Origin: a virus | Strand: one strand, 5' to 3' | IMG/VR virus record: IMGVR_UViG_3300026255_000014 | Location: 1-37,708 of that record | Length of the DNA stretch: 37,708 nucleotides | Part shown: positions 13,038 to 32,029 of the stretch, piece by piece | Layout: each line of letters opens with the position of its first letter | Position numbering within the stretch: the stretch's first letter is position 1 | Notes under the pieces: generated by a model | Database searches by the model: none | Told to the model about the DNA's origin: nothing | What the model saw: only the letters and a program-made list of their open reading frames with translations | Program-made: the position numbers and the translations under genes

Positions 13038-13063
13038 GGGCGGGGGCGATTTCGCCCCCGCCC
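13038..13063 (+). terminator. GC-rich hairpin downstream of the capsid gene
   Basis: GGGCGGGGGCG-ATTT-CGCCCCCGCCC perfect 11-bp stem, with a T-run at 13074..13078. Confidence 0.6.
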
Positions 13064-13078
13064 TGAGAGGAAGTTTTT

Positions 13079-13285: not shown

Positions 13286-13292
13286 GTGAGGA

Positions 13293-14670: not shown

Positions 14671-14672
14671 CT

Positions 14673-15125: not shown

Positions 15126-15129
15126 CAAC

Positions 15130-15606
15130 ATGGCAATCAAGCGTTCAAAACTATTGCATTTTATGAACACTACGCCGTCAAGCACGGCAACTTACTACTT
15201 GATGAACACTGGTATCACCAGCCTTAGTATCAACAAGAATCCAACTTACCTGGAAGAAGGGTACATCGCTGACGATGTTGGCAGCAAACAGTTGGAAAGT
15301 CTTGCGCCTGAGTTCACATTTGAGATCAACGTGGACTCGGCTGACGAAGTTTCAAAGTTCTTGACTGGTTTGGAATGGAACGACAAAACCCTGACCGATG
15401 TTGAGACAGACATTGTTTCTGTGCAGTATTGGAAAACCCCAACTGGAACTGCCTATCCTGCAAAAAAGTATAAGGTTTCTGTTTCTGTTGAAACAATCGG
15501 TGACGAAGCGTTGAAGACGCTAAAACATTCCGTTACCTGTGGCGTTATGGGCGATGCGGTCTTTGGGACATTCAACACCTCTTCCAAAGCCTTTAGTGCG
15601 ACCTAA
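15130..15606 (+). CDS. Major tail protein, paralog 1
   Basis: Position upstream of chaperones and tape measure; homologous to the adjacent gene. Confidence 0.6.
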   Translation: MAIKRSKLLHFMNTTPSSTATYYLMNTGITSLSINKNPTYLEEGYIADDVGSKQLESLAPEFTFEINVDSADEVSKFLTGLEWNDKTLTDVETDIVSVQYWKTPTGTAYPAKKYKVSVSVETIGDEALKTLKHSVTCGVMGDAVFGTFNTSSKAFSAT

Positions 15607-15623
15607 TTAGAAAGGAATAAATA

Positions 15624-16133
15624 ATGGCGATCAAAAGATCAAAATTACAACATTTTATGAATACCACGCCAGACGAGACAACTCCATCTGGCGGTGAAAC
15701 ATGGTCGTTGATGAACACTGGCATTACCAGCCTGAGCATCAACAAAAACCCAACCTATCTTGAGGAAGGGTACATTGCCGACGATGTTGGCAGTAAACAG
15801 CTTGAGAGCCTTGCGCCTGAGTTCACTTTTGAGATCAATGTAGATGAGGACGACCCTGTGTCTATTTATCTGACTGACTTAGAGTGGGAAGATGCAACTT
15901 TGGAAGACGTTGAAACCAGCATCGTGTCTGTGCAGTTGTGGCAGACTCCCTCTGGCACTGCTCCAAACTTATTGTACCCTGCGAAGAAATACAACGTGTC
16001 AATCTCGGTTGAAACCATTGGCGATGAAGCGTTGAAAACGCTAAAGCATTCGGTGACCGCTGGTGTGATGGGCGATGCGGTCTTTGGGACTTTCAATCCG
16101 AACACAAAAGCCTTTGTAGAAGACGAGGATTAG
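15624..16133 (+). CDS. Major tail protein, paralog 2
   Basis: Protein is alignable along its length with 15130..15606 (identical N-terminus MAIKRSKL.HFMNTTP and long shared blocks). Confidence 0.6.
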   Translation: MAIKRSKLQHFMNTTPDETTPSGGETWSLMNTGITSLSINKNPTYLEEGYIADDVGSKQLESLAPEFTFEINVDEDDPVSIYLTDLEWEDATLEDVETSIVSVQLWQTPSGTAPNLLYPAKKYNVSISVETIGDEALKTLKHSVTAGVMGDAVFGTFNPNTKAFVEDED

Positions 16134-16136
16134 TTG

Positions 16137-16577
16137 ATGGAATCAATCAATATCAAAACCGATAGCCAGCGGACTTTGTGTATCAACGATGACGAGTCCA
16201 GGTGGATTTCGTTTGATGCAGAAGACCTGAATTTCTACGGTAGGCTGAAGGTCTTATATAGTTCGCTTGGTGGAAAGCAAAAAGAGTTTGAAGTCAAAGA
16301 AGCCGAAGCACGTGCTCTTGAGGGCGAGGATGAGAACGGTGCGCCGTTGTCTGCTTTGGCTTTGATTGACATTCAGACCGAGTTTGCCAGTCATGTGACT
16401 GAAGGAATGGACGCGGTATTCGGTGAGGGCACTTGCCAACGCCTGTTTGGAAACACGTTCAATCCAGACGCTTACGGTGAACTAATCAAGGCTATTTTGA
16501 CACACATTTCAAAATACCGTGAGAAGAAACTGCAGGCTGAACTGAAAAAAAATCCAGGCAAAAAGGTAATGAAATAA
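16137..16577 (+). CDS. Tail assembly chaperone (candidate)
   Basis: Acidic ~147-aa protein immediately upstream of the tape measure gene. Confidence 0.45.
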   Translation: MESINIKTDSQRTLCINDDESRWISFDAEDLNFYGRLKVLYSSLGGKQKEFEVKEAEARALEGEDENGAPLSALALIDIQTEFASHVTEGMDAVFGEGTCQRLFGNTFNPDAYGELIKAILTHISKYREKKLQAELKKNPGKKVMK

Positions 16578-16578
16578 G

Positions 16579-17196
16579 TTGAAGAACTTTCTGATCGAGC
16601 AGTTTCCTGATGCAATCGAGATTGACGGTGAAGTATATGCCGTCAATACTGATTTTCGTGTCGGGTTACAGATTATGGCTGACTTTGAGAATCCTGAGTT
16701 TGACCAGGATGAGAAGGGCTATCTAATGCTCAATCGGCTTTATCGTGATTTGCCAGATGACAGGGACGGCGAGTTTTATCAGGAAGCGTTATCAAAGGCG
16801 ACTAAATTTCTGAACGCTGGCGATGAGGCAGGACAAGACGTTGACGGCAAACCACGGCTTTACTCGTTTGACAAAGACGCACGGTTGATCTATTCTGCTT
16901 TCTCACAGACTCACGGTGTAGACCTGCAAACAGCCGATATGCACTGGTGGAGGTTTATCGCTCTCTTCATGGATTTGGGGGCAGATACGGCTTTCAATTC
17001 TATGGTCAACCTACGGAAACGTTATCACGAAGGCAAGTTGACCGATGAAGAAAAGAAATTGGTAGCGCGGTTAGGCAATGATTTTCTACTTGAGCAGGAA
17101 GAAAGTTATGAGCCGCTTGACCCTGATGAAATTGCATTTATTGAACTTTTACCAGAAGAAGACCAAAAGAGGTTTTGGGAAAGCAGGAAACGCTAA
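16579..17196 (+). CDS. Tail assembly protein (Gp15-like, candidate)
   Basis: TTG start; N-terminal pattern recalled from the Gp15 family; stop overlaps the TMP start (TAATG). Confidence 0.4.
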   Translation: MKNFLIEQFPDAIEIDGEVYAVNTDFRVGLQIMADFENPEFDQDEKGYLMLNRLYRDLPDDRDGEFYQEALSKATKFLNAGDEAGQDVDGKPRLYSFDKDARLIYSAFSQTHGVDLQTADMHWWRFIALFMDLGADTAFNSMVNLRKRYHEGKLTDEEKKLVARLGNDFLLEQEESYEPLDPDEIAFIELLPEEDQKRFWESRKR

Positions 17197-19901: not shown

Positions 19902-20266
19902 TAGTGATTGACGGCACTTCTTACGACATCCCAATCAAGTCCATTCAAGGTAAAGCGGATATGCTGGACAAATATGCCGAAAGAACTTTGGACGGCGTAC
20001 TCCATCGTGAGTTGATTGGTGTATACGACAACTATGAAATCGAGTTTGCGGCAACCTATCGGAATCCAACAGTTTATTCTGACCTTTGGTTTAAGTTGAC
20101 TGAGCCAGTGCCCTGGCACACCGTTACATTTCCTACTGTCTTTGGTGACCGTGCGATTGTTGGTTATTTTGCCAATACTTCACACGATATTTCAAAACAA
20201 AAAGATGGGACAACATACTGGAAAAATCTGACAACTTCTTTTGTTTCCCGTGAGAAGAGACCATAG
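19898..20266 (+). CDS. Hypothetical tail protein
   Basis: Position after the tape measure gene. Confidence 0.4.
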   Translation: MIVIDGTSYDIPIKSIQGKADMLDKYAERTLDGVLHRELIGVYDNYEIEFAATYRNPTVYSDLWFKLTEPVPWHTVTFPTVFGDRAIVGYFANTSHDISKQKDGTTYWKNLTTSFVSREKRP

Positions 20267-20268
20267 CA

Positions 20269-21849
20269 ATGTCTTATACCTACCCGATTGTCACTCTTAG
20301 CATTATGAATGATACCATCGTGTTTCAAGACACCGATGTAATTGAGGCAGAAGTCACGCAGGAAATCCATCCGATTGGGATTGAAGTTCCTGCTTCAAAA
20401 GCAACGATTAGAGTATGGCTTGATGATGAAATTGTGGATGAAGAGGGTAGAACGCTAAGGGATAAGTTTAGACCTTTTTCAGACGGGATTTATTACCAAT
20501 CCATGACCACAGGCTTGATAGTGGATGTCAGTGAGCGGATAGTCGATGAAGACAACTCAATTGACACAGAGCATTTTGTTGGTCGGTTTTATCTCGAAGG
20601 GTGGAATACCACAAAAGAAGGTGAACTCGAACTCGATTGCACTGATGCCGTTGGTCTTTTGGAAAACACAACTTATTTAGGGAATTTCTATGAGACACCG
20701 ACACGCGCTGACGTAATTCTTGCAGATATTTTTAATAATGTTGACTTGCTTTATTCTGTGGAAACAGGTATCGCACAAAAATATTTGAAAGGCTACATCC
20801 CTGGGGACATCACTTTACGTGAGGCTTTGCAGCAAGTGCTGTTTGCTTGTGGGGCTTTTGCTATAACAGAAAAGAACGAAATTGATATTGTATTTCTCAA
20901 TATCAAAAGTGGAAGACTGCCGATTGCCAATCCCGTTTACCCTGGCTACTACTATGAAGAAGAAGGCGAAACAGAGCCTGTTTCGACATATGATGGTGAT
21001 GCCTGGTATACCAATGTTCTTCTGGACACAATTGTCACAAATGAAGAAAAGACTGATTCGCAGGAGCTCAATATTTTGCAGTTAGTCACTGGTGTCGAAA
21101 TCACAAGTCACGACTATTCAAAAAGCGAAACACTTGAAGAGATATACAACGCTTATCTTGCCCCAGGCGAATATATGGTTGTTTACGATAAACCGTACTG
21201 GCATGTCGAAGCGTCTGGTGTTGGTGACAGAATTACTTATCTTGGCACAACAACACCAACAAATGATGACGGACAAGATGAAGTTCTTGTTTTCCCTTAT
21301 TCTGGCGCAACATATCCTGATGTGACGATTCTTACAACTTATGGCGAATTTGAGTTTGGCGTAAATTATGTCTATCTATATGTGCCAGAGCCAGGCGGAA
21401 CGGCAGTGGTTAGTGGCAAACCCTGGTTGGATGCAAAACAAAATTTCATCTGGGTGAATCCAGCTGGAATAACATCGTATGAAGAGGGTGCGGTTTATGA
21501 TGACCCACTTGCCTTATATAATGATGCGGTCTATTACCGTGACTGGAACACCTATGCCCCACCAAATGTTTGGAAAATTACCAATGCTACACTTGTGCCT
21601 TTTAATAAATCTGATGCTGAGGTGACTGTAGAAGAAGTCTTGGCGAGAGTCGCAGAATACGCAAGTTTGCGCTATCAGCAAAAGGCTAATTTGTTTCCAC
21701 GGACAGACCTTGAGTTAGGCGAGATTGACATTATCGAATCGCTTTATGGCAAAAGCGTGGTAGGCGTTGTGGAGCGTATAAATAGCGATTTAACTGGCGG
21801 CTACCTGATTGATGCTGAGTTTATTGGAGTCGAAAGGGTGACGGTATAG
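20269..21849 (+). CDS. Tail/baseplate protein (candidate)
   Basis: 526 aa, position in tail tip module. Confidence 0.45.
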   Translation: MSYTYPIVTLSIMNDTIVFQDTDVIEAEVTQEIHPIGIEVPASKATIRVWLDDEIVDEEGRTLRDKFRPFSDGIYYQSMTTGLIVDVSERIVDEDNSIDTEHFVGRFYLEGWNTTKEGELELDCTDAVGLLENTTYLGNFYETPTRADVILADIFNNVDLLYSVETGIAQKYLKGYIPGDITLREALQQVLFACGAFAITEKNEIDIVFLNIKSGRLPIANPVYPGYYYEEEGETEPVSTYDGDAWYTNVLLDTIVTNEEKTDSQELNILQLVTGVEITSHDYSKSETLEEIYNAYLAPGEYMVVYDKPYWHVEASGVGDRITYLGTTTPTNDDGQDEVLVFPYSGATYPDVTILTTYGEFEFGVNYVYLYVPEPGGTAVVSGKPWLDAKQNFIWVNPAGITSYEEGAVYDDPLALYNDAVYYRDWNTYAPPNVWKITNATLVPFNKSDAEVTVEEVLARVAEYASLRYQQKANLFPRTDLELGEIDIIESLYGKSVVGVVERINSDLTGGYLIDAEFIGVERVTV

Positions 21850-21864
21850 AAGGAGTGAAAATTT

Positions 21865-22920
21865 ATGGCTGAGCCTTTAACTAAGAAAATTAATGATTTA
21901 CCCGAAATGGGTGTCGTAGCAGCGTCTAACGACAAATTGCTGATGCTTGATGTGAGCGAGAGTGCTGTTAACATGACAAAGTTAGTGCCGATGAATTTGC
22001 TTTCAATTCACACGGCATCGCAACTTGCCGCAAATACGGTGGGCAGTTCTCAGATAAAAGCAGGCGCAGTAACAAACAGCAAACTTGGCGCAGACGCTGT
22101 TAATGGGGCTAAGATTGCAGATGACGCAATTGGCAATGAGCACATTAGAGACTCCGTAGCTTTGTCGGTTATCGGGCGTTCTTCCAGTACCAGCGGTAAC
22201 CCCGCTGACATCGTTGCAGGTACAAACGGTCACGTGCTCAGACGATCTGGTACAACACTTGGTTTCGGCCAAGTTGCCAATGCTGGAATTGCTAACGGTG
22301 CAGTAACAAACAGCAAACTTGGCGCAGACGCTGTTGATGGGGCTAAGATTGCAGATAACGCAATTGGCAATGAGCACATTAGAGACTCTGCTGCATTATC
22401 TGTAATTGGGCGTTCTGCGAATAGCAGCGGTAACCCCGCTGACATTGCAGCTACTACCGATGGTTATGTCCTGAGACGATCAGGAACAACTTTGGGATTT
22501 GGTCAGGTTGTTACTGCTGGAATTGCGAATAATGCTGTTACCGAAGAGAAGTTAGGCACGATTAAGCGCACCCTCTTTCTTCGGGTGACCGCGCCAGACG
22601 ACACATTAACAGTGGGAAGCACCACCAAATTCTTCCCGTTCCCGATTACCCTAAACAACTTTATCGTTGTCGACGCAAGAATCAATCTCATTACGGCATC
22701 GTCAAGTGGAACGGTCACAGTCGCTTTGTTAAATCAAGGCGGCACAATGACGACCTTATCACTTGCTGCTGGAGCAACGGGCATGAGCGCAAGCGGAACA
22801 ATCTCAACATCGTACCGCACTGCGATAACGAATAACTTTCTCGGTGTGAACGCAACCGCCGCTGGAACAGGGGCTAAAGGGCTTAGCATAACACTCGTTT
22901 TGCAAGGAGTGCCTGCATGA
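21865..22920 (+). CDS. Tail fiber protein with two tandem ~80-aa repeats
   Basis: Internal duplication AVTNSKLGADAV.GAKIAD.AIGNEHIRDS.ALSVIGRS...SGNPADI......G.VLRRSGTTLGFGQV, roughly nt 22060..22540. Confidence 0.6.
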   Translation: MAEPLTKKINDLPEMGVVAASNDKLLMLDVSESAVNMTKLVPMNLLSIHTASQLAANTVGSSQIKAGAVTNSKLGADAVNGAKIADDAIGNEHIRDSVALSVIGRSSSTSGNPADIVAGTNGHVLRRSGTTLGFGQVANAGIANGAVTNSKLGADAVDGAKIADNAIGNEHIRDSAALSVIGRSANSSGNPADIAATTDGYVLRRSGTTLGFGQVVTAGIANNAVTEEKLGTIKRTLFLRVTAPDDTLTVGSTTKFFPFPITLNNFIVVDARINLITASSSGTVTVALLNQGGTMTTLSLAAGATGMSASGTISTSYRTAITNNFLGVNATAAGTGAKGLSITLVLQGVPA

Positions 22921-23486
22921 TAAAAACCTTGACGTTGCCAATGGTTTGGAATAGATACGGCTCAAGCTACGGCTCAGCGGCTGACGAAATCCGTTTGGGT
23001 TGGCGGGAGTTCAATTTTATCAACTACAAATACAACTCCTGGGCGAAGTTCAATGTTTCAGAAGTGCTTGCGCTGAATCTGCAGGCAAGATACATTGTCT
23101 CAGCAAAGATTGTCATGTTCCTGAGTGGCACCGATTACGATGTCAGTTGTAAGGTCTATAACACCCTCAAGCCCGCCACGAGTGGGGCAAACTGGAACAC
23201 CTACAACGGCACTAACTCATGGACAGTGCCTGGCGGAGAAGGCAGCGGAACAGACCACGGCTCAGAGTTAGCTAATGCCAGCAATTTTGGTCAAACAACG
23301 GTTGAAATCCCCTTATCTGGTGCGGCTCTGATGGAAGCCGTTGTAACTTCAAACGGGATATTCTCGTTTATTACAACCAGCCCTCAAGGAACAAACGATT
23401 ATATTGTCGCATATTCAACAACGTACCCGCCCTATTTATCGGTAACTTATAACAAACCATCTATGTTCGACGTAATAATATTTTAG
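22917..23486 (+). CDS. Hypothetical tail-associated protein
   Basis: Position only. Confidence 0.4.
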   Translation: MIKTLTLPMVWNRYGSSYGSAADEIRLGWREFNFINYKYNSWAKFNVSEVLALNLQARYIVSAKIVMFLSGTDYDVSCKVYNTLKPATSGANWNTYNGTNSWTVPGGEGSGTDHGSELANASNFGQTTVEIPLSGAALMEAVVTSNGIFSFITTSPQGTNDYIVAYSTTYPPYLSVTYNKPSMFDVIIF

Positions 23487-23504
23487 ATAGAGAGGATAAT
23501 AAAC

Positions 23505-24014
23505 ATGGCAGCATCATACCCAGGAACGATAAAACCATTTTCAACGAAAGAACCCGGTCAAGCAATCGCCTCCAGCCACATTAACGAATTGCAGGACGAA
23601 GTGGTCGCCATCGAAACCCAACTCGGCACGAACGCAGGAATATGGCAATCTTATACGCCTACCACAGTAATAGGATGGGAGGCAGGCTATACCGTAGATT
23701 ATAGATATGCCGTAATAGGCGATTTATGCTTCATAGCCCTGTCTATATCAGGAACAAGCAACAACAATCAAGCACGAGTCAGTACACCAGTACCAGTAGG
23801 GGGAACTGGCTATTTATATACACCAGTAGCACTATATAAGGATAATGACGTAATGGTTTACGCTGGCGGCAGAGTTTTTGGTCAGATAAGACCGCACACC
23901 GTATCTGAACCAGATATGGTATTTTTCTGGATTGACGGCTCGGCTTCTAGTTGGACAGAAACTAAAGGAAAACAAATATATTTTAACGCATTTTACCCGA
24001 TTTACCGAGCATAA
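23505..24014 (+). CDS. Hypothetical protein
   Basis: Position only. Confidence 0.4.
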   Translation: MAASYPGTIKPFSTKEPGQAIASSHINELQDEVVAIETQLGTNAGIWQSYTPTTVIGWEAGYTVDYRYAVIGDLCFIALSISGTSNNNQARVSTPVPVGGTGYLYTPVALYKDNDVMVYAGGRVFGQIRPHTVSEPDMVFFWIDGSASSWTETKGKQIYFNAFYPIYRA

Positions 24015-24057
24015 AGCATGAAACCAATAATTGACATAAGCAGCCACCAGGAGGATT

Positions 24058-25470
24058 ATGACTTATCCGTTCGGCATTGACATTTCGGCTTACCAATACT
24101 CACAAGACGGCTCACGAAAGCCCGACTTCGACCTAATCAACGAAAAGTGTGACTTCGTTGCCGTGCGTGCTGGCATCAGTTGGGGGTACACCGACAAGTG
24201 GTTTGAGTATTCGTGGTCACACGTTCTCAGACCGAGGCTGGGGTATCACGTGGTTTACCCTGGCGAGAGTGCGACTGCACAAATGAAACACTTTCTCAAC
24301 ATCGTGCATCCAACTCAGAATGACCGCCTTGTGCTTGATATGGAACTCGACCACGGCTATAGCAAGGCTCGAATCACAAAAACGCTTGTGGACTGTATGA
24401 ACATTATACAGACAGAGACGGGGCGTTATCCTGTGATTTACAGCAGGGCTTATTGGATTAACCAGTTTGTAGACGTGAACGCTTTGCCAGAAAAGACCGA
24501 CTGGTGGTTAGCAAACTACCTGCGTTCTAATCCCGACCCGTATTTCACGCCAGAGATGACACCGCCGCCTATGTTGCCAAACGGTGTGAAGAATTGGCTC
24601 ATCCATCAAACGTCAAAAGAACAGGACGGCAGTAAGGTGGGCGTGGTTAGTCACTATGTGGACACTAATCGTTGGAACGGTACACACGATGAGTTGCTGG
24701 CTTACTTCGGTTACGATGAGCAACCAGAGCCTGAACCTGAACCTGAACCGGAAGAGCCTTTGTTCCAAGCACGCGTTTACAGCTGGGCGACTCCCTACGT
24801 CAACGTGAGAGCCGAACCTTCATTAAGCGCAGGGAAAGTCGGCTTCAAATACCCGTTAGCGGTGACCGATGTTATGAGCACGATGCCTGACTGGTACGAA
24901 GTGCCCGAAGGCTGGATGATGTCTCGATTCTTAGAACGGCTTGACTATGACCCGCCCGCCACGATGCTTGCAATCAAGCCGCTCTCACAAAGAGACACGC
25001 GCTGGGCTTCTCACAAACTCGGTTATTCCTATTACACGATAGGCGGTTACGGATGCCTTATCACAGCTATCAGTATGATACTGAACTGGTACGGCAAGCA
25101 GACCGACCCGGCGCAACTCAATGACGCTTTGGTTAGGGTGGGCGGTTTCACGGGTGCAAACCTTTATTGGAACGCAATCGCGCAAGTTCAGCCTGACATT
25201 TACCTTGCAAAGGCTATCGACTGCTACTATATTCCAGCACCCTTGCACGAAATAGACGCTCTGCTTGCGGATGACGTTCCCGTCTTGGTGCACGTTGACT
25301 TCACGCCGGGTGGCGCGGTAGATCAGCATTGGGTGCTGATTGTCGGCAAGTCGGGCGATGATTACATCATCAATGACCCGTGGACTGGGGAGCAAGGTAG
25401 TTTCCGCACTCGTTATGGCGATCCTGCCCGCTGGATATTCCGCATCAGGGCGTATCGGAGGCAAGCATGA
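24058..25470 (+). CDS. Modular endolysin: GH25 muramidase, (EP)n linker, C-terminal C39-like cysteine peptidase
   Basis: N-terminal FGIDISAYQ typical of GH25; linker EPEPEPEPEPEEP; C-terminal GYGCLITAISM and DQHWVLIVG suggest a papain-like Cys/His pair. Confidence 0.8.
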   Translation: MTYPFGIDISAYQYSQDGSRKPDFDLINEKCDFVAVRAGISWGYTDKWFEYSWSHVLRPRLGYHVVYPGESATAQMKHFLNIVHPTQNDRLVLDMELDHGYSKARITKTLVDCMNIIQTETGRYPVIYSRAYWINQFVDVNALPEKTDWWLANYLRSNPDPYFTPEMTPPPMLPNGVKNWLIHQTSKEQDGSKVGVVSHYVDTNRWNGTHDELLAYFGYDEQPEPEPEPEPEEPLFQARVYSWATPYVNVRAEPSLSAGKVGFKYPLAVTDVMSTMPDWYEVPEGWMMSRFLERLDYDPPATMLAIKPLSQRDTRWASHKLGYSYYTIGGYGCLITAISMILNWYGKQTDPAQLNDALVRVGGFTGANLYWNAIAQVQPDIYLAKAIDCYYIPAPLHEIDALLADDVPVLVHVDFTPGGAVDQHWVLIVGKSGDDYIINDPWTGEQGSFRTRYGDPARWIFRIRAYRRQA

Positions 25471-25513
25471 CCTTCGTGATCAATTCAAACATTCAACCTA
25501 TAGGAGATAACTA

Positions 25514-25924
25514 ATGGCAACTTACACAAAATTTCAACAATTCGTAGAAGACCTTGCAGAGAAGAAACACAATCTCGCAACCGACACACTCAAGGTCGCG
25601 TTTTCCAACGCCGCTAACGCCCCATCTGCTTCGGCTGACGTCAAGCTGGCTGACATTACCACCATTGTCGCAACCAACTTGGGCGACGTTACCCTAACCG
25701 TATCGAGCTCAAGCCAAACCGCCGGCACGTACAAGTTGGTGGTTGCAGACAAGACCCTAACCGCGGTGGGCGCAGTACCAGCGTTCCGCTATGTGATCAT
25801 CTACAACGACACCGCCGCTAACGACGAGTTAATCTGCTTCTTCGACTACGGCTCGGAAGTCACGCTCGCATCGGGCGACACGTTCAAGCTCGACTTCGGC
25901 ACAGAACTGTTTAGCTTGGCGTAA
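25514..25924 (+). CDS. Hypothetical protein (Thr/Ala-rich, beta-rich)
   Basis: ORF track; no motif recognised. Confidence 0.4.
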   Translation: MATYTKFQQFVEDLAEKKHNLATDTLKVAFSNAANAPSASADVKLADITTIVATNLGDVTLTVSSSSQTAGTYKLVVADKTLTAVGAVPAFRYVIIYNDTAANDELICFFDYGSEVTLASGDTFKLDFGTELFSLA

Positions 25925-26032
25925 TCGTGGCGAATATGATACCGCCTCGGCGTTGGGTCGGGGCGGCAAGTTGAGCGAGATGTATCCACGCGCCGTCATT
26001 CGTTACGGCTCATATAGGAAGGTAAATTAGTT

Positions 26033-28426
26033 ATGGCAAATTGGGCTAAGTTACAAGAGCAACTGACAGGACTGCCTGTTGTAAAGCGAGACAAGCACAG
26101 CATCCACTTTGCCAAAGGTGACGGGCAAATCGTTGCCAACTTCTCAGGCGCACCCTGTCACTATGAAGAGAACGGCATCTGGAAAGCACTCGACACCGCC
26201 ATCGTTGAACTGGAAGACGGCTCACTTGGCGCAAAGGGCGTACCAGTCCGCTTGAACCTGAACGGGCTTGTCAGGCTTATCAACGAAAACAACGAGGACT
26301 TATACAGTCAAGTCACGACACGGGTGGGCGTGTTCAATAGCACTACCCGCAACTTGGTAGATTACATCAACCTGCCAGTAGGACAAGTTCAAGACGACCT
26401 GCTGATAAAAGACACCGACCTCTATTCTCACAGTTTGCGCTTGACCGAAACAGGCTTGCGCGAAGAAATTGTCATCAAGTCAAAGCCAGCGTTTGTAACC
26501 GACAAGGCTAACTTATGGCTGGTACTTGACACGGTTGTGACGGGCGTAAGTTTCGAGGACGGCTGGCTGGATGCGTTTGAGATTGCGCAAATGCACTTCC
26601 CACCTCCAACCGCTACCGATGCGGAGGGGCGAGAGGGCACGGCGAAACGCTATGCCAAGAATATTGGTGGCGTTCAGCACATCTTTACTGGCTTGAAATT
26701 CAGTGAGTTGTATCGGGCGGCTTACCCTGTAACGGTTGACCCTGACTTTAGTGGTGGGTCTGGATATGTAATTACTAGTCAAAGTACTGATTATGCTACT
26801 GCAAGAACAACGAGTGTATCTTCAGCAGCTTGGTCGAATAGGTCTGACGTTGGGCAGGGACAGTGGTCTGTTTATCTAAGAACTTTACGCATCTTTACAA
26901 AGTTTGACACATCAAGTATAGGAGCAGGCTCAACAGTTACACAAGTTAACTTGGCTATGTGCCCTTATTATAACAATTCTGCTACAGATTTTGACATCCA
27001 GATATGTATGCAAGACTGGTCGGCTCAAGACCCCATAGCATCGGGAAATAGAGAAACAGCGTTTGACAACTGTCTCGCAGAAACAGATTACGATGTTTGG
27101 TTGAACAGTGCTGATTGTCCGAAAAGACAGAGATATACGGGTGGAAATATGACCACATCGTGGATTAACAAGACTGGCACAACATATTATAGTATTCGCT
27201 CAAGTAGGGACTACAACGGCGATGAGCGTGTAATTGATGGAAATACTGAAACTGTTAACTTGTGTGCGCCAGATAACGCCACCGAATCCTACCGCCCCGT
27301 TCTTACCGTCACCTATCTCATTCCCGACTACACCCTCACTTGCGCCGCCGGTTCATACTCGCTGACTGGCACGGATTGCACGCTTACGCACACTCCGGCA
27401 TCGCAAAACCTGACCCTCACCTGTTCCGCTGGCTCATATTCGCTAACAGGCACGAACGCCGACTTGACGGTCAAGCGGAATTATGTGCTGGCGTGTGGTG
27501 CTGGAAGTTATTCGCTCACCGGCTCGGATGTGGATTTTGTTCTGCAACGCAATTACTCGCTTGAATGCGGTGCTGGAAGTTACAGCCTGACTGGTACGGA
27601 CACGACATTCGAGGTCAAGCGAAATTACACGCTTGTCTGTGAAGCTGGAAGCTACAGTCTTACTGGTACTAACGCCGACTTGACGGTCACCCGACATTAC
27701 ACGCTAACCTGTGAGACTGGAAGTTATGCGCTTGCTGGCACTAACGCCGACCTTATTTTACAGCGCAACTATGTGTTAGCTTGCTCTGCTGGCAATTACT
27801 TAATCACAGGCACGGACGTAACACTCACTGTTCAACGCAATTACACCCTCACCTGCGCCGCCGGTTCATACTCGCTGACTGGCACTAACGTCACGCTCAC
27901 ATCAACCGTAAAGCAAAACTTGACGCTGGCTTGTTCTGCAGGCTCGTACTCGCTTACTGGCACTAACGCCGACTTGACGGTCACCCGACATTACACGCTA
28001 ACCTGTGAAGCTGGAGGTTATGCGCTTACTGGCTCAATCGTTGATCTGACAGTCCAGCGCAACTATGTGTTGGTGTGTGAAGCTGGTAGTTACGCGCTAA
28101 CCGGAACAAACGCAGGCTTGACTTCTGCTCGCACAATGGCACTCGAATCAGGTTCGTACGCCTTGACTGGCACGAATGCCGGTCTATACCGCGCGTTGGT
28201 TATGGCTTGTGAGGCTGGAACTTATGCGCTCACAGGCTCGGATGCTACGTTCAATGCCAATTACATATTTGCTCTCGGAATGGGGAGTTACGTTCTGGTT
28301 GGCACGAGCGTGGGATTGTTCGTTCTCTCGCCAACACCGGCTTGCAGAACCGCGACAATCGAATTTGAGAACAGAACATTTGCAATTCCGCATGAGAATA
28401 GAACATTAGAGGTCACATGTCACTAA
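26033..28426 (+). CDS. Large repeat protein: ~430-aa N-terminal domain plus ~16 tandem 22-23-aa Cys-containing repeats
   Basis: Repeats of consensus YTLTC.AGSYSLTGTNADLTV.RN span roughly nt 27320..28330. Confidence 0.6.
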   Translation: MANWAKLQEQLTGLPVVKRDKHSIHFAKGDGQIVANFSGAPCHYEENGIWKALDTAIVELEDGSLGAKGVPVRLNLNGLVRLINENNEDLYSQVTTRVGVFNSTTRNLVDYINLPVGQVQDDLLIKDTDLYSHSLRLTETGLREEIVIKSKPAFVTDKANLWLVLDTVVTGVSFEDGWLDAFEIAQMHFPPPTATDAEGREGTAKRYAKNIGGVQHIFTGLKFSELYRAAYPVTVDPDFSGGSGYVITSQSTDYATARTTSVSSAAWSNRSDVGQGQWSVYLRTLRIFTKFDTSSIGAGSTVTQVNLAMCPYYNNSATDFDIQICMQDWSAQDPIASGNRETAFDNCLAETDYDVWLNSADCPKRQRYTGGNMTTSWINKTGTTYYSIRSSRDYNGDERVIDGNTETVNLCAPDNATESYRPVLTVTYLIPDYTLTCAAGSYSLTGTDCTLTHTPASQNLTLTCSAGSYSLTGTNADLTVKRNYVLACGAGSYSLTGSDVDFVLQRNYSLECGAGSYSLTGTDTTFEVKRNYTLVCEAGSYSLTGTNADLTVTRHYTLTCETGSYALAGTNADLILQRNYVLACSAGNYLITGTDVTLTVQRNYTLTCAAGSYSLTGTNVTLTSTVKQNLTLACSAGSYSLTGTNADLTVTRHYTLTCEAGGYALTGSIVDLTVQRNYVLVCEAGSYALTGTNAGLTSARTMALESGSYALTGTNAGLYRALVMACEAGTYALTGSDATFNANYIFALGMGSYVLVGTSVGLFVLSPTPACRTATIEFENRTFAIPHENRTLEVTCH

Positions 28427-28698
28427 CATTACAAAATCCATTGAAAGACCCTTCCGCAGTGCTGGATTATGTGTTCGACTGGACGGAATGGCTGGCAACC
28501 GGCGAAACAATCACCGACCATACTATCACAGCCGACACGGGTATCACCGTTGACAGTTCGACTGAATCAGACGGCAAAGTTACCGTCTGGCTCTCAGGCG
28601 GTACGGCTGGTATCAATTACAAAGTGGCGTGCCTGATTACAACGTCCGCAGGGCGAACCGACGAGCGCACAATCTGGATCAAGGTGGTCGAAAGGTGA
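28417..28698 (+). CDS. Small conserved-looking phage protein (possible fiber-associated)
   Basis: Pattern DYVFDWTEWL...VTVWLSGGTAG.NYKV recalled as a recurrent phage family; function unknown. Confidence 0.35.
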   Translation: MSLTLQNPLKDPSAVLDYVFDWTEWLATGETITDHTITADTGITVDSSTESDGKVTVWLSGGTAGINYKVACLITTSAGRTDERTIWIKVVER

Positions 28699-30185
28699 GC
28701 AATTTGTTTCCAGACATAACGGGCGTGCTATATGAAGAAGAACAGTCAAAATTACATGAGATAGCCAAAACAACTACGCATCCAATTGTCAACATTGGCG
28801 TATATCAAGGATTGTCTACCGCACAACTTGCAAGTGGCACAAAGCAGAGCGTGTACGCCATTGACATTTGGGATGAGCGACCAGCAGGGTATGTCCCAAG
28901 TAAAAGGGACTTGATGAGGGGATACCACCTGAAGAAAACTCAGGACGTTTTCCTTGAAAACATGGAAAAGCACGGCTTGACAAACGTTATCCCGATAAAG
29001 GGTAACAGCAAGGTGGTTGGCAAAACCTGGGACACCCCGATAGGCGTGTTGTTTATCGACGGTGATCACCATTACAAATCCGCGCTTTCGGATTACAGCT
29101 TGTTTGCAAAACACATTGTAGTCGGCGGATGGTTAGCAATTCACGATTATCACATAAAAGACGTTAGAAGGGTGATAGACGAGATCATCATTCCTTCGGG
29201 ACTGTGGACGGACATTGAACTGACAGAGACCTTATGGGTTTGCAAGAGAAAGTCGTGCACGACAGCAGACGCAAAACCGCCTATGACATACTGGATACGC
29301 CATCATCAGCACAAAGGGAAGCCAATTGAAGACGCTTTAATTAGTCAAGGATGGCAGTGTAGTGACGCGCCAGATATTGCCTTGTTCGACACCGCGAGGA
29401 ACAAACCTATAGAACGCAGGTTTAGAAGAGGGGGCGCAACGCTTGTAGTCTATCCGCATACGGCAATTGCTGGCTGGTGGTACGACGGGATATTAGAACC
29501 GCCTAACGGCTTTAGTGCAATACTGGCTATCGGGGAAGGACAGAAGGAAGTCCAGAATATCATCACGCCGAACATCAGGGTTGAAACAATTGGTTGGAGT
29601 TATTGTCCAATCTTGCCATTTCAAAAGCCAAAGGCGATCAAGCAAATACTGTTTGCCCCCATCCATCCAAGCCTCAATGGCAAGTTGAGATCAGAGGCAA
29701 AAGACGTGAACGTCAGGGTGTATAAGCGTTTGCTGGAAATGAAAGGCGTGCAGATAAACCTTCGTGTTATTGGCGATCTTGAAAAGAATGGATTATGGCA
29801 CTCGCCAGATGTTACAACCACAGAAGCCCAACCAGACGGAAGTTATGCAGAAATTGATTCTGCAGATTTGGTGATAGGCGAGGGCATGTTTCTATCGCTT
29901 GCAGTAGCCAGAGGGAAGCCAGCTATCGGAATGAATCAGCGCGTAACACAGAAAGTAAACTGGAGTGGGCGCGTTCCAAAACGGTGGAACGAATATAACC
30001 ACTTACAAGCATATCCGATTGACTTTGATGACGCTGATCTGCCGGAGTTGATTGACAAGGCGGTAGACGAATCACAGGTAAGCAACTGGAAGAAACGCTT
30101 TATCGGTGAGCAGTTGCAACCTGAGCATTTATCAAACGTGCTAAAGGACATCAGGAATGAGCATGCCAAACAGAGAGAACAATAA
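28695..30185 (+). CDS. Fusion protein: class I SAM-dependent methyltransferase-like N-terminus, glycosyltransferase-like C-terminal domain
   Basis: NIGVYQGLST...FIDGDHHY...GGWLAIHDY resembles Methyltransf_24-type O-methyltransferases; C-terminal ADLVIGEGMFLSLAVARGKPAIG resembles GT-B C-terminal domains. GTG start overlaps upstream stop. Confidence 0.5.
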   Translation: MSNLFPDITGVLYEEEQSKLHEIAKTTTHPIVNIGVYQGLSTAQLASGTKQSVYAIDIWDERPAGYVPSKRDLMRGYHLKKTQDVFLENMEKHGLTNVIPIKGNSKVVGKTWDTPIGVLFIDGDHHYKSALSDYSLFAKHIVVGGWLAIHDYHIKDVRRVIDEIIIPSGLWTDIELTETLWVCKRKSCTTADAKPPMTYWIRHHQHKGKPIEDALISQGWQCSDAPDIALFDTARNKPIERRFRRGGATLVVYPHTAIAGWWYDGILEPPNGFSAILAIGEGQKEVQNIITPNIRVETIGWSYCPILPFQKPKAIKQILFAPIHPSLNGKLRSEAKDVNVRVYKRLLEMKGVQINLRVIGDLEKNGLWHSPDVTTTEAQPDGSYAEIDSADLVIGEGMFLSLAVARGKPAIGMNQRVTQKVNWSGRVPKRWNEYNHLQAYPIDFDDADLPELIDKAVDESQVSNWKKRFIGEQLQPEHLSNVLKDIRNEHAKQREQ

Positions 30186-30188
30186 ATT

Positions 30189-31493
30189 ATGAGCGAAACC
30201 GCTTTGATCGACAATATCTCAAGAGAGATATTTGAAGGTAATGGAAACGCACAAGAGAAACTACGTAGAATATATGGTAAAGAACTAAACTATACCAACG
30301 CCAAAAAATACTTGGCTGGGATAAAACTGCACCTGAACACGGTCAAGGGCTTAGACAAAAACCAACAAACTTTTGGTACATCGAAAGAGATCAGTTTCAA
30401 TGCTGACAAAAGTCAAACCGTAAAACAAGACGTTTACCTGACACCGGACGAGGCAGCCGATCCTTCAAAGATAATGCGGAGGATGGGCTTTGATCCTTTG
30501 TTATGGGAAGTTATAACCTGCAACGTGATCAGCGGATCGTGGGATGTTACGATCAAGAACGAAGCCTATGAGGGCGTGAAATACACGAACCAAAAATACT
30601 CGATAAAGTTGACCGTGAAACCGTTGGGGGGCAACCTGACGTTTCCACAAGTGCTGAGTGCTTTCAAGGAACTGCAACCTGCCAAAGTTATCGAGTACGA
30701 CTACGAACCGATTGTAACAGGAAAAGGGCTTTTGTTTGAACTGCCAATTATGGATTTCCACTTAGGCAAACTCGCCTGGTCTGGCGAAACAGGCGATGAT
30801 GATTATGATCTGAAAGCCGCTGCAAAGTTGTGGAAGAAAACTGTAGACGATCTGATAGACAAGGCTTGCAGCTTTGGCGAGATTGAGAAAATATTGTTTC
30901 CAGTTGGGCAAGACTATTTTCATTTTGACACGCCAACGGTTACTACAACCGCTGGAACTCAACTCGATTCTGACACACGTTGGCAGAAGATGTTTAGCAA
31001 AGGCGTGGAGTTGTTGGTTTGGGCGGTAGAGCAATTGAGAAAGATTGCGCCAGTTGAAGTATTGTGGATTCCAGGCAACCACGATCAGATGTTATCTTAT
31101 GCGGCAACTGTGGGCTTGGCTCAACGGTATGCAGAAACTAAAAGCGTAAAGGTGGACTTGAGCGCAACCCCCAGGAAGTATCGCTTGTTTGGAAATAGCC
31201 TTATCGGATATTCTCACGGCGAAAAAGAAGGCAAGCGGCTGGAGGGGCTTATGCAGATTGAAGCACCTGAACTTTGGGGTGATTCTATCTTCAGGGAATT
31301 TCATATGGGGCATTTGCACACTGAATCAACCGTCACAAAAAACGGTATCGTGTTTCGCAGGATCAGTGCGATCACCGCACCCAATGCCTGGCACGTGGAA
31401 AATGGTTTCATTGGCAGTGTACGACAGGCGCAAGCGTTTATGTGGGATAAGGAACGCGGCTTGCAAGCTATCTTGAATAGTAATGTGAGGTAA
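30189..31493 (+). CDS. Calcineurin-like metallophosphoesterase-like protein
   Basis: Ordered motifs DFHLG, GQDYFHFD, GNHD, YSHGE, GHLH resemble the metallophosphatase signature. Confidence 0.5.
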   Translation: MSETALIDNISREIFEGNGNAQEKLRRIYGKELNYTNAKKYLAGIKLHLNTVKGLDKNQQTFGTSKEISFNADKSQTVKQDVYLTPDEAADPSKIMRRMGFDPLLWEVITCNVISGSWDVTIKNEAYEGVKYTNQKYSIKLTVKPLGGNLTFPQVLSAFKELQPAKVIEYDYEPIVTGKGLLFELPIMDFHLGKLAWSGETGDDDYDLKAAAKLWKKTVDDLIDKACSFGEIEKILFPVGQDYFHFDTPTVTTTAGTQLDSDTRWQKMFSKGVELLVWAVEQLRKIAPVEVLWIPGNHDQMLSYAATVGLAQRYAETKSVKVDLSATPRKYRLFGNSLIGYSHGEKEGKRLEGLMQIEAPELWGDSIFREFHMGHLHTESTVTKNGIVFRRISAITAPNAWHVENGFIGSVRQAQAFMWDKERGLQAILNSNVR

Positions 31494-31494
31494 T

Positions 31495-31713
31495 ATGCCC
31501 GTCTACGTTTACCATTGTGACAATTGCCTGAAGCAGACCGAGATATTTCAACACTTCACCGATGACCCGATAACCGTGTGCCCTGAGTGTAAACAGCCGA
31601 CTTTGCAGAAAGTGTATCAGGTTGCGAACGTGCATTACAAGGGCAATGGCTTCTATGTCACGGATAAACGAGGGGCTGAACAAGTGTCGGGGGAGTCTTC
31701 GGACAACTCATAA
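31495..31713 (+). CDS. FmdB-family-like zinc-ribbon protein
   Basis: MPVYVYHCDNC...CPEC...GNGFYVTD matches the FmdB-type zinc ribbon pattern. Confidence 0.65.
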   Translation: MPVYVYHCDNCLKQTEIFQHFTDDPITVCPECKQPTLQKVYQVANVHYKGNGFYVTDKRGAEQVSGESSDNS

Positions 31714-31742
31714 CGCGGGGGCAGTACCCGCCAGCTCCACTA

Positions 31743-31780
31743 AAAGAGCACCAGCTAAATTGTAGGTGCTCTTTCGTTTT
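31743..31780 (+). terminator. Rho-independent terminator closing the late operon
   Basis: AAAGAGCACC-loop-GGTGCTCTTT followed by CGTTTT. Confidence 0.7.
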
Positions 31781-31781
31781 A

Positions 31782-31855
31782 AGTATTGTATTCGAGTATT
31801 GTAATTAAGTATTGTAAGACGCATCCCATTTTAAGTATTGATTTCAGGTATTGTA
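31782..31855. repeat. Five direct copies of RGTATTGW (AGTATTGTA core), iteron-like
   Basis: Copies at about 31782, 31795, 31808, 31834, 31847. Confidence 0.7.
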
Positions 31856-32029
31856 ACGCCTTCTTCTGCCATTGCCTTATCAAGCAGGTTGCGTAGAGTA
31901 CGGCTGATCCCCTGTGGCTGTGACGTAAAAAAAGGGGGTAAAAACAGGGGTTATTATAATATCGCATAATTACACCTTATTATAATACAACGCTTATTTT
32001 AGGGGTATTTTATCGCTTGCAATGGCCAC

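What the first reader, a model, noticed from the sequence alone, without database searches (positions are those of the whole stretch)
26033..28426. 797-aa protein with about 16 tandem 22-23-aa Cys-containing repeats
After a ~430-aa non-repetitive N-terminal domain the protein becomes a regular array of repeats, consensus YTLTC.AGSYSLTGTNADLTV.RN, with one conserved Cys per unit. Adjacent DNA units have diverged at synonymous positions, so the array is old and under selection. The regularity suggests a solenoid-like fiber or spike, a possible host-range determinant, placed unusually after the endolysin.
Basis: partly seen in the sequence, partly recalled or inferred. Interest (0 to 1): 0.7.

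Follow-up and report, generated by a model that had tools for sequence, protein, structure and literature searches.

The report
Beta-helix phage fibre with collar-docking tail
The 797-residue protein is most likely a phage fibre with a sugar-binding head, a 14-turn beta-helix shaft and a short repeat tail, probably fixed to the virion through the small Gp77-type collar protein encoded next to it; the middle of the gene is swapped among related phages.

Summary
The ORF (26033-28426, +, 797 aa) and its repeat array are real, but the array has 14 units, mostly 24 aa (range 22-27), not ~16 of 22-23. Cys is present in 12 of 14 units.

- An N-terminal pair of carbohydrate-binding-type beta-sandwiches; the second is CBM96/DNRLRE-like.
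- A low-confidence 32-aa tail.

The repeat belongs to a large family with no Pfam model (6,746 clusters at 50% identity; usual period 22 aa). The Cys is clade-specific; it is Ala elsewhere.

The tail carries Arg every 9 residues (CRTATIEF-ENRTFAIPH-ENRTLEVTCH). The next gene overlaps by 10 nt and encodes a 93-aa homologue of GP4 gp77, the Ig-like collar that anchors fibres at the head-tail joint. Period-9 tails face Gp77-like genes in 20 of 24 testable loci, against 4 of 286 control termini. Three distant members chosen only for their tails all had a Gp77-type gene beside or near them.

Relatives keep the flanks (a phrog_644 136-aa gene; the last repeats, tail and Gp77-like gene). They swap the N-terminal part and vary repeat number from 9 to 18.

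Best reading: a collar or neck fibre. This is a new variant of the GP4/Bas63 collar-rope system, inferred and not shown.

The parts
25514..25924 (+). 136-aa protein (phrog_644), the conserved upstream partner of the fibre gene. Its function is unknown. By position and size it corresponds to the ~140-aa 'bead' subunits (GP4 gp80, phrog_240) of collar fibres.
   Evidence: phrog_644 E 6e-15. There are 2,836 homologue clusters, and the best 120 are 86-96% identical. A homologue lies directly upstream of the fibre gene in 6 relatives. One also lies near repeat proteins in L001, L009, L010, L069 and L070. Homology to gp80/phrog_240 was not detected (hhalign probability 1% or less).
26033..28426 (+). 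The whole fibre gene (797 aa plus stop).
   Evidence: ORF list. The identical protein occurs on 23 contigs read from 34 collection blocks. AF2 mean pLDDT is 82.5.
26033..26737 (+). aa 1-235: N-terminal helix (aa 4-12, conserved MANW start) followed by a beta-supersandwich resembling galactose-mutarotase-like and GH38 C-terminal domains.
26738..27322 (+). aa 236-430: CBM96/DNRLRE-like beta-sandwich, a putative glycan-binding domain.
27323..28327 (+). aa 431-765: 14 tandem units (27, 24x6, 26, 24, 24, 22, 22, 22, 24 aa), consensus RNYTLxCEAGSYxLTGTDAxLxVQ. Predicted as a three-sided parallel beta-helix shaft.
28328..28423 (+). aa 766-797: C-terminal tail SPTPACRTATIEFENRTFAIPHENRTLEVTCH. Arg at 772, 781 and 790 (period 9), each followed by alternating hydrophobic residues. 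Bracketed by Cys771 and Cys796. Proposed docking ('rope') peptide.
   Evidence: pLDDT below 50 for 766-784 and 788-797. Tails of the same type occur across the family. Adjacency to Gp77-like genes is 20 of 24 against 4 of 286 background. Three lookups made as a prediction test found a Gp77-type gene.
28417..28698 (+). 93-aa Gp77-like Ig-type protein, overlapping the fibre gene's end by 10 nt. Proposed collar or adaptor ring.
   Evidence: PF23148 Gp77 E 3.1e-29. PDB 8jou_D (GP4 gp77) E 7.7e-11. It is 98% identical in L007, where the fibre's repeat region is 67% identical and its N-terminal domain aligns only over aa 168-428 at 40%. The role of gp77 is taken from PMC11445570 and PMC12609058.
28076..28698 (+). 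Conserved 3' flank of the variable cassette: the 22-aa units 11-14, the tail and the Gp77-like gene.
   Evidence: 82-89% nt identity to L022, L028 and L031. The N-terminal domain region 26033-27322 has no DNA match in any relative. The 5' flank 25502-25969 (the p136 gene) is 73-84% identical.

Best explanation
The gene encodes a modular virion fibre. It belongs to a three-gene cassette (136-aa phrog_644 protein, fibre, 93-aa Gp77-like protein) in a siphovirus.

Shown by prediction, the chain has four parts:
- Two N-terminal beta-sandwich domains of carbohydrate-binding type; the second is CBM96/DNRLRE-like.
- A 14-turn, three-sided parallel beta-helix built from the 24-aa repeats. This would be a rigid shaft roughly 65-70 A long, if each turn rises about 4.8 A as in known beta-helices.
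- A flexible 32-aa tail with three Arg-x-hydrophobic-x-hydrophobic strand-like segments spaced 9 residues apart.

Inferred mechanism: the tail works like the 'rope' of the GP4 and Bas63 collar systems. It is an extended peptide whose short strand segments dock onto a ring of Ig-like Gp77-type subunits around the head-tail connector, possibly also onto the 136-aa protein. This fixes the fibre by its C-terminus, and the helix holds the glycan-binding head away from the virion. The head would then make reversible first contacts with host-surface or matrix polysaccharide.

The cassette has conserved ends (the p136 gene; the last four repeats, tail and Gp77-like gene) and a replaceable middle. Recombination can therefore change the binding head and the shaft length without disturbing attachment.
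For: Fold:
- AF2 gives pLDDT of about 95 for aa 1-430 and 65-85 for the repeats, with three strands per unit. The tail is below 50.

Virion link:
- The downstream gene is PF23148 Gp77 (E 3e-29) and matches PDB 8jou_D (E 8e-11). It overlaps the fibre stop by 10 nt.
- gp77 is a 93-aa Ig-like 15-mer encircling the head-to-tail adaptor that anchors fibres (PMC11445570). In Bas63 the collar's rope threads through whisker subunits and completes their sandwiches (PMC12609058).

Tail and collar coupling:
- Period-9 Arg arrays lie on the terminus facing a Gp77-like gene in 20 of 24 testable loci, against 4 of 286 other termini.
- The lineages include Microcystis phage Mae-JY28 and mycobacteriophage DS6A. 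In Faith1 the array is two genes away.
- Three distant family members picked only for such tails (P0099, P0077, P0058) were checked. Two have a Gp77 gene directly downstream. The third has phrog_644 and then a phrog_4137 Gp77-type gene.
- Members with other tail types (P0073, P0102) have no Gp77.

Neck context: in L068 the cassette abuts the head-completion gene. In L069 it lies between the capsid and portal genes.

Modularity:
- Repeat number is 9-18 and N-terminal parts are swapped in relatives with the same tail and Gp77.
- The flanks are conserved at 73-89% nt, with no DNA match across the N-terminal domain.
- Gp77-like is 98% identical and p136 74% in L007. There the fibre's repeat region is 67% identical and its N-terminal domain aligns only over aa 168-428 at 40%.
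Against: - Nothing shows that the protein is in virions or where it sits.
- Gene adjacency and co-occurrence do not prove contact. Many of the 20 positive loci are close relatives, so only about 5-7 lineages are independent.
- No solved structure contains the period-9 motif by sequence. GP4 gp78 and gp79 are not in the PDB by sequence, and I could not read the GP4 paper, so the identity and sequence of the GP4 rope are unknown to me.
- The 136-aa protein is phrog_644, not the phrog_240 family of GP4 gp80, and hhalign finds no relation.
- In actinophage records Gp77-like genes lie among genes annotated as minor tail proteins. A tail-tip location is therefore not excluded.
- The invariant MANW N-terminus of the head domain, and the many stand-alone 440-aa versions of that domain, could mean the N-terminus is the attached end.
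- The oligomeric state is unknown; only a monomer was modelled.
- Repeat-region confidence is moderate.
Confidence: 0.5

Rival explanations
1. Tail-tip side fibre or receptor-binding protein. On this reading the Gp77-like protein adapts the fibre to the baseplate or distal tail of this siphovirus rather than to the neck. The fibre would be the main or a secondary receptor binder.
For: The cassette follows the tail-tip genes in the window. In Faith1, Tangerine and DS6A the Gp77-like gene lies among genes annotated as minor tail proteins. The beta-helix fold is shared with tailspikes.
Against: The only solved homologue of the adaptor sits around the head-to-tail adaptor. In L068 and L069 the cassette lies beside head-completion, portal and capsid genes. 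phrog_644 follows the portal or the adaptor gene in L009 and L010. The tail-tip module has its own fibre-like gene, 21865-22920. The 'minor tail' labels are annotations by position only.
Confidence: 0.2
2. Capsid-anchored head fibre or decoration. On this reading the fibre, with p136, is attached to capsid vertices or faces and mediates adhesion to polysaccharide matrices rather than host recognition.
For: phrog_240 relatives at the corresponding position are annotated 'head protein'. GP4 fibre I and the Bas63 up-facing whiskers touch the capsid. The cassette lies next to capsid genes in L069.
Against: The 'head protein' labels are unverified. The Gp77-type protein is a connector collar in the one solved case. 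No capsid-binding domain was recognised.
Confidence: 0.1
3. Enzymatic tailspike (polysaccharide depolymerase) whose beta-helix carries the active site.
Against: The best matches are non-enzymatic adhesin helices: Vag8, UpaB, pertactin and EtpA. The turns are near-identical 22-24-aa units with no long loops or insertions that could form a catalytic groove. Repeat number varies freely from 9 to 18 among relatives. No Pfam, PHROG or NCBIfam enzyme family matches.
Confidence: 0.05
4. Non-structural protein released at lysis. Examples would be a matrix- or cell-wall-binding factor, or a decoy, co-expressed with the endolysin.
For: The gene lies just downstream of the endolysin (GH25 + SH3 + C39-like, 24058-25470) in the window and in L007. 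There are no direct virion data.
Against: There is tight, overlapping linkage to a homologue of a solved virion protein. In other lineages the cassette lies among head and neck genes with no lysin nearby. No Pfam, PHROG or NCBIfam export or membrane-anchor family matches the protein, and by eye the N-terminus (MANWAKLQEQ...) does not look like a signal peptide; no predictor was run.
Confidence: 0.1

Closest known systems
Ralstonia podophage GP4 fibre-collar system: gp77 fiber-tail adaptor, 'rope' protein and gp80 fibre I (PDB 8JOU; Zheng et al. 2023, J Mol Biol 435:168258, known to me only through PMC11445570 and PMC12609058)
   Same: A 93-aa Ig-like Gp77-family protein (PF23148; 38% identical to gp77) is encoded directly beside a large fibre-type gene and close to a ~140-aa small-protein gene. 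An extended peptide with short strand-like segments is the proposed link. GP4 gp79 carries a weak copy of the Arg motif (IERQLFVEDDSRTLVV).
   Different: The host virus here is a siphovirus with a tape-measure gene. The fibre is one 797-aa chain with a beta-helix shaft and carbohydrate-binding head, not a string of gp80 dimers. The putative rope is fused to the fibre's C-terminus. The small partner is phrog_644, not phrog_240.
Collar-whisker assembly of Escherichia myophage Bas63 (Felixounavirus), PMC12609058
   Same: An Ig-like collar ring sits on the connector, with a rope peptide that supplies strands to partner subunits.
   Different: In Bas63 the rope is the N-terminal extension of the collar protein itself and carries only whisker dimers. 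No sequence similarity was found between the window proteins and any solved chain other than GP4 gp77.
Autotransporter passenger beta-helices (Bordetella Vag8 7AKV, E. coli UpaB 6BEA, pertactin 2IOU)
   Different: The window protein has no match to an autotransporter barrel family. By eye the N-terminus does not look like a signal peptide. The context is a phage, sequence identity is 11-12%, and the sequence repeats are far more regular.
Phage tailspikes and depolymerases (for example CBA120 TSP2/3, LKA1 gp49, phi29 gp12)
   Different: The polarity is reversed: the conserved, presumably attached end here is C-terminal and the variable end is N-terminal. There is no sign of an active site. Trimer formation is untested.
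CBM96 / DNRLRE carbohydrate-binding modules (8WAB, chondroitin-sulfate binding; 7VBO, alginate binding)
   Different: The window protein itself is below the family thresholds. The ligand is unknown. Here the module is part of a phage fibre, not of a lyase.

Membership tests
Parallel beta-helix (pectate-lyase-like / autotransporter-passenger-like solenoid) | About 22-25 residues per turn with three beta-strands per turn | tested here: met
   DSSP on the AF2 model shows three strands of 4-7 residues in each 22-27-aa unit from aa 433 to 764.
Parallel beta-helix (pectate-lyase-like / autotransporter-passenger-like solenoid) | Three-dimensional similarity to solved beta-helices | tested here: met
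   [not shown]
Parallel beta-helix (pectate-lyase-like / autotransporter-passenger-like solenoid) | Match to a sequence family of beta-helix repeats (Pfam Beta_helix, PbH1 and similar) | tested here: not met
   No Pfam, PHROG or NCBIfam family covers aa 431-765. No PDB sequence match was found.
CBM96 / DNRLRE domain | Profile match above the curated threshold | tested here: inconclusive
   For the window protein, NCBIfam DNRLRE scores E 0.006 and 16.7 bits against a cut-off of 34, and there is no Pfam hit. Ten of 39 homologues of the domain match Pfam CBM96, best E 8e-9.
CBM96 / DNRLRE domain | Beta-sandwich fold of solved CBM96 modules | tested here: met
   [not shown]
CBM96 / DNRLRE domain | Binding of an acidic polysaccharide | not testable with these tools
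   This needs binding assays. Ligand residues were not compared.
GP4/Bas63-type collar-rope-fibre system | An Ig-like collar protein of the Gp77 family encoded with the fibre | tested here: met
   PF23148 E 3.1e-29. 8jou_D E 7.7e-11. The genes overlap by 10 nt.
GP4/Bas63-type collar-rope-fibre system | An extended 'rope' peptide that interlocks with the collar and partner subunits | tested here: inconclusive
   A period-9 Arg/hydrophobic tail with pLDDT below 50. It is adjacent to Gp77-like genes in 20 of 24 loci against 4 of 286. Three of three prediction lookups were positive. No structural or sequence link to a solved rope was found.
GP4/Bas63-type collar-rope-fibre system | Bead subunits of the gp80 / whisker family (phrog_240) | tested here: not met
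   The neighbouring 136-aa protein is phrog_644. hhalign against a gp80-type alignment gives probability 0.7%. There is no PDB match.
GP4/Bas63-type collar-rope-fibre system | Location of the ring at the head-tail connector | not testable with these tools
   Gene context in L068 and L069 is suggestive only.
Autotransporter adhesin | N-terminal signal peptide and C-terminal outer-membrane beta-barrel | tested here: not met
   No autotransporter domain was found in Pfam. The protein ends 32 aa after the helix. No signal-peptide predictor was run; by eye the N-terminus does not look like a signal peptide. The gene is in a phage.
Tailspike depolymerase | Catalytic site on the helix and a conserved N-terminal particle-binding domain | tested here: not met
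   There are no enzyme family hits. The turns are uniform, without insertions. The N-terminal part is the variable end among relatives. Enzyme activity itself was not tested.

The most novel reading that the evidence does not exclude
The period-9 Arg-x-hydrophobic-x-hydrophobic tail may be a general plug that connects many unrelated fibres to Gp77-type Ig collars.

If so, the 22-aa repeat proteins would be a very large, unannotated class of exchangeable neck fibres. They span at least 6,746 clusters at 50% identity and several tail types, and occur in contigs with siphovirus-type tail genes and in podovirus contigs. Gp77-like genes with adjacent or nearby period-9 arrays are also found in cultured mycobacteriophages and a Microcystis phage.

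In that case the motif alone would predict which protein is the GP4-type rope or fibre in any genome. The conserved-flank cassette would be a natural socket for swapping host-binding heads.
Probability: 0.35. Interest if true: 0.75.

Novelty: new variant of a known kind. Interest (0 to 1): 0.6.

Why it matters
Collar or neck fibres anchored by Gp77-type rings have been resolved only recently, in a podophage (GP4) and in Felixounavirus myophages such as Bas63.

- This locus would extend the system to siphoviruses.
- It shows a different build: a long beta-helix with carbohydrate-binding head domains, with the docking peptide fused to the fibre.
- It gives a simple sequence rule, a period-9 Arg tail next to a Gp77-like gene, that can be tested in cultured phages (Mae-JY28, DS6A, Faith1).
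- It draws attention to a repeat family with thousands of members and no Pfam, PHROG or NCBIfam model.
- It shows a conserved-flank arrangement that would be useful for engineering or predicting host range.

Tried and rejected
- **Close relatives in GenBank:** megablast of 20000-32000 against GenBank phages found no match.
- **Family searches on the repeats:** Pfam, PHROGs and NCBIfam gave only noise (DUF5597, ThiI_C, phrog_36919).
- **PDB sequence searches:** none matched with the whole protein, the N-domain profile, p136, the p136 profile or a period-9 array.
- **p136 versus GP4 gp80-type proteins:** single-sequence and profile hhalign comparisons were not significant. I therefore treat the correspondence as positional only.
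- **Homologue search with p136:** it returned only near-identical sequences in the listed top 120, so it could not deepen the profile.
- **Repeat-alignment query for related loci:** Single-protein queries were used instead.
- **Disulfide idea:** Cys72 of the Gp77-like protein does not track with Cys-bracketed tails. It is present in L061, L068 and L070, whose tails lack Cys. The idea was dropped.
- **One disulfide per repeat:** rejected by inference. The position is Ala in 62% of units outside the 24-aa clade and lies two residues after the conserved Leu, so it should face the core. Model coordinates could not be inspected.
- **Promoter and terminator scan of 23900-30300:** at background level.
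- **Intergenic region 25922-26035:** a GC hairpin is present, but the fold is not better than shuffles (z -0.71).
- **Guessing the Bas63 accession to inspect its collar rope:** this returned a different BASEL phage and was abandoned.
- **Host:** only a hint. Four of the nine genome-collection hits to the N-domain are in contigs of MAGs labelled Anaerolineae, Anaerolineales or Anaerolineaceae.
Full report
**The observation.** The ORF is exactly as reported: 26033..28426, + strand, 797 aa. The anchor G-x-[YFW]-x-[LIVM]-x-G occurs 14 times between aa 440 and 751. Five thousand shuffles of the protein gave a mean of 0.11 and a maximum of 2. The other window proteins, 7,229 aa in all, contain one.

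Spacings between anchors are 27, 24 (x6), 26, 24, 24, 22, 22, 22. The array therefore has 14 units of mostly 24 aa (aa 431-765, nt 27323-28327), not about 16 units of 22-23 aa. Cys occupies the same position in 12 of 14 units.

Mean nucleotide identity is 56%, and only 39% of identical residues share a codon. Tandem Repeats Finder detects just 2.8 copies. Units 1-2 resemble units 8-9 (83% and 82% nt), and unit 6 resembles unit 10 (80%). This points to a later duplication of a multi-unit block.

**The genome.** The window is a siphovirus. In order it encodes:
- large terminase (6372-8966) and portal (9169-11115);
- protease and major capsid protein (11710-13020);
- head-tail adaptor and tail tube candidates;
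- tape measure protein (17175-19901);
- a tail-tip module (19898-24014) that includes its own fibre-like gene (21865-22920);
- an endolysin with GH25, SH3 and C39-like domains (24058-25470);
- a 136-aa phrog_644 protein (25514-25924);
- the repeat protein;
- a 93-aa protein (28417-28698);
- a methyltransferase-domain protein and an exonuclease.

The same phage, with an identical 797-aa protein, occurs in many public assemblies. No GenBank phage is close at the DNA level.

**Structure of the protein.** An AlphaFold2 model built on 90 homologues has mean pLDDT 82.5. Confidence is about 95 for aa 1-430, 65-85 for the repeats and below 50 for aa 766-784 and 788-797. Every repeat forms three short strands.

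**The repeat family.** A full HMMER scan with aa 431-797 found 6,746 representatives of 50%-identity clusters at E up to 0.001, and 3,634 at E up to 1e-10. No Pfam, PHROG or NCBIfam model covers the repeat.

Across the family the usual period is 22 aa, with consensus xGxxLxAxAGSYxLTGxAAxLx. The 24-aa period and the Cys are peculiar to the window's clade. The Cys position is Ala in 62% of units elsewhere. It lies two residues after the conserved Leu, so it should point into the core. I read it as an internal ladder of small residues, not a set of disulfides. This is inference, because I could not inspect coordinates.

The array lies within 120 aa of the C-terminus in 112 of 146 proteins. It follows many different N-terminal domains, including Laminin_G_3, fn3, SPRY and CBM_X2.

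**The tail and the neighbouring gene.** After the last repeat comes SPTPACRTATIEFENRTFAIPHENRTLEVTCH. Arg sits at 772, 781 and 790, each followed by alternating hydrophobic residues, and the segment is bracketed by Cys771 and Cys796.

The next gene starts 10 nt before the fibre's stop codon. It encodes a 93-aa protein that matches Pfam Gp77 (E 3e-29) and GP4 gp77 in PDB 8JOU (E 8e-11). According to PMC11445570, gp77 is a 93-aa immunoglobulin-like protein. Fifteen copies encircle the head-to-tail adaptor of podophage GP4 and anchor its fibres.

According to PMC12609058, the related Bas63 collar carries a 'rope' peptide. Whisker dimers wrap around it like beads on a string, and the rope completes each subunit's incomplete sandwich. 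In GP4 the rope is a separate protein that interlocks with the collar. A low-confidence peptide with a strand-like motif every nine residues is what such a rope would look like.

**Testing the tail-collar link.** I examined the loci fetched with the repeat region or the Gp77-like protein, together with annotated phages. In 20 of 24 testable loci the protein terminus facing the Gp77-like gene carries at least two R-x-[AFLIVMY]-x-[VIL] motifs spaced 9-10 residues apart. The same test was positive for 4 of 286 termini of other ORFs of 150 aa or more. Many positives are close relatives. The separate lineages are:
- the ..QCTDDD-tail group (L029, L060) and L061 (seven copies);
- the 625-aa protein of Microcystis phage Mae-JY28;
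- mycobacteriophage DS6A gp27, where at least eight copies lie at the N-terminus of the gene downstream of the Gp77-like gene;
- Faith1 gp24, with seven exact copies, two genes away;
- GP4 gp79, weakly.

As a prediction test I looked up three distant period-22 proteins chosen only for their tails:
- P0099 is followed by a Gp77 gene and then a head-completion gene.
- P0077 is followed by a Gp77 gene, and then, one small gene later, by the portal gene; a phrog_644 gene lies two genes upstream.
- P0058 is followed by phrog_644 and then a phrog_4137 (Gp77-type) gene.

Members with coiled-coil or Trp-repeat tails (P0073, P0102) have phrog_644 nearby but no Gp77. The tail type therefore predicts the adaptor gene. 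In two of these lineages (L068, L069) the cassette lies among head and connector genes, which favours a neck location.

**Modularity.** In IMG/VR relatives, every complete protein with the CRT...ENRT...CH tail is followed directly by a Gp77-like gene (66-100% identical). Repeat numbers are 9, 10, 11, 12, 13, 14 and 18. The N-terminal part is the 430-aa CBM type, an unrelated region of about 290 aa, or only 55-100 aa.

DNA comparison shows conserved flanks. The p136 gene (25502-25969) is 73-84% identical. The last four units, tail and Gp77-like gene (28076-28698) are 82-89% identical. No relative has any match across 26033-27322.

In L007 the Gp77-like protein is 98% identical and p136 is 74% identical. 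The fibre's repeat region there is 67% identical, and its N-terminal domain aligns only over aa 168-428 at 40%. p136 has 2,836 homologue clusters, with the top 120 at 86-96% identity. The fibre's nearest non-identical relative is only 45% identical. This is the pattern of a host-range cassette with fixed attachment parts and an exchangeable binding part. The polarity is the reverse of classical tail fibres.

**Interpretation.** The best-supported account has three elements. The protein is a virion fibre held by its C-terminal tail on a Gp77-type ring, probably at the neck. A 14-turn beta-helix forms the shaft. Two carbohydrate-binding-type domains form the distal head and make reversible contacts with surface or matrix polysaccharide.

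Shown here, all by prediction or comparison rather than experiment:
- the repeats and their predicted fold;
- the CBM96-like domain;
- the homology of the neighbouring gene to gp77;
- the statistical and predictive link between tail type and Gp77-like genes;
- the cassette mosaicism.

Inferred:
- physical docking of the tail to the collar;
- the neck location;
- the role of p136;
- the ligand.

Weak points:
- There are no virion data.
- p136 is not detectably related to GP4 gp80.
- No solved structure contains the motif.
- The conserved MANW N-terminus, and the stand-alone versions of the head domain, leave open which end is attached.
- Actinophage annotations place Gp77-like genes among minor tail genes.

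**Novelty.** The fold, the CBM and the collar protein each belong to known kinds. The combination is new in several respects:
- a rope-like docking tail fused to a long beta-helix fibre;
- a siphovirus host;
- phrog_644 as the small partner in place of phrog_240;
- a period-9 motif that tracks Gp77-like genes across distant phages;
- a repeat family of thousands of members without any profile model.

I rate it a new variant of a known kind and of moderate to good interest. The main value lies in the testable tail-collar rule.

Noticed in passing
L067 6269-8137 (Mycobacterium phage DS6A gp27); L063 9748-12036 (Faith1 gp24); L064 5127-7004 (Microcystis phage Mae-JY28): Cultured phages carry the same exact period-9 Arg arrays next to, or two genes from, their Gp77-like genes. 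DS6A gp27 begins CEARSAAVVAEDRRALVATEQRTGTVLAEDRH..., and Faith1 gp24 ends with seven copies. A phrog_240 'head protein' gene of the GP4 gp80 family lies in each of the three neighbourhoods. These phages are candidates for an unrecognised collar-fibre apparatus.
   Followed up: partly
window 25514-25924: The 136-aa phrog_644 protein is very widespread and conserved: 2,836 homologue clusters, with the best 120 at 86-96% identity. It has no annotation anywhere. In SU10-like podophage contigs it follows the portal or the adaptor gene.
   Followed up: partly
window 27323-27475 versus 27836-27985: Repeat units 1-2 and 8-9 are 82-83% identical at the DNA level, against a 56% average. Both pairs begin with an over-long unit (27 and 26 aa). 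This is evidence of a recent duplication of a seven-unit block inside an otherwise old array.
   Followed up: partly
[not shown]
   Followed up: no
window 6372-8966: The large terminase ORF is 864 aa. The usual terminase profile (phrog_9) covers only aa 417-855. The first ~400 aa match other terminase-family and P-loop profiles (phrog_36964, and weakly DnaC-like and primase families). This is an unusually long terminase or a fusion.
   Followed up: no
window 24058-25470: The endolysin has three modules (GH25 muramidase, SH3_3 and a Peptidase_C39_2-like papain-fold domain). A (PE)6 linker (PEPEPEPEPEPE, aa 222-233) separates the first from the other two.
   Followed up: no
window 28629-30185 (gene callers start it at about 28695): The gene after the Gp77-like gene encodes a Methyltransf_24 domain (aa 54-174) followed by about 300 aa with no family match. 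It is called a DNA methyltransferase by PHROG only. It is not conserved at this position in L007. Whether it acts on DNA or on something else is unclear.
   Followed up: no
L002 17986-22017 versus L003 17986-22365: Two contigs carry the identical fibre protein and the same called genes across 1-17921, then differ downstream of the ERF recombinase gene. One has a tyrosine integrase module. The other has MT-A70, DnaB-like and SSB genes. The population therefore appears to include variants with and without an integrase.
   Followed up: no
window 25941-25966: A 10-bp GC-rich hairpin (CCGCCUCGGC-GUUGG-GUCGGGGCGG) without a U-tract lies between p136 and the fibre gene. It falls inside the stretch conserved with relatives (to about 25969). 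The whole intergenic fold is not better than shuffles (z -0.71).
   Followed up: partly
L066 6273-6515 (Gordonia phage Tangerine gp38): An 80-aa protein is encoded immediately after the Gp77-like gene. It consists of repeated DDFAD-x-DVRV-xx-M-x-VDV segments with a period of about 19. It may be a free-standing rope-like peptide of a different register.
   Followed up: no
L011, L013, L015, L016 (genome collection): Four of the nine genome-collection relatives of the N-terminal domain lie on contigs of MAGs labelled Anaerolineae, Anaerolineales or Anaerolineaceae. This is the only hint at a host group.
   Followed up: no
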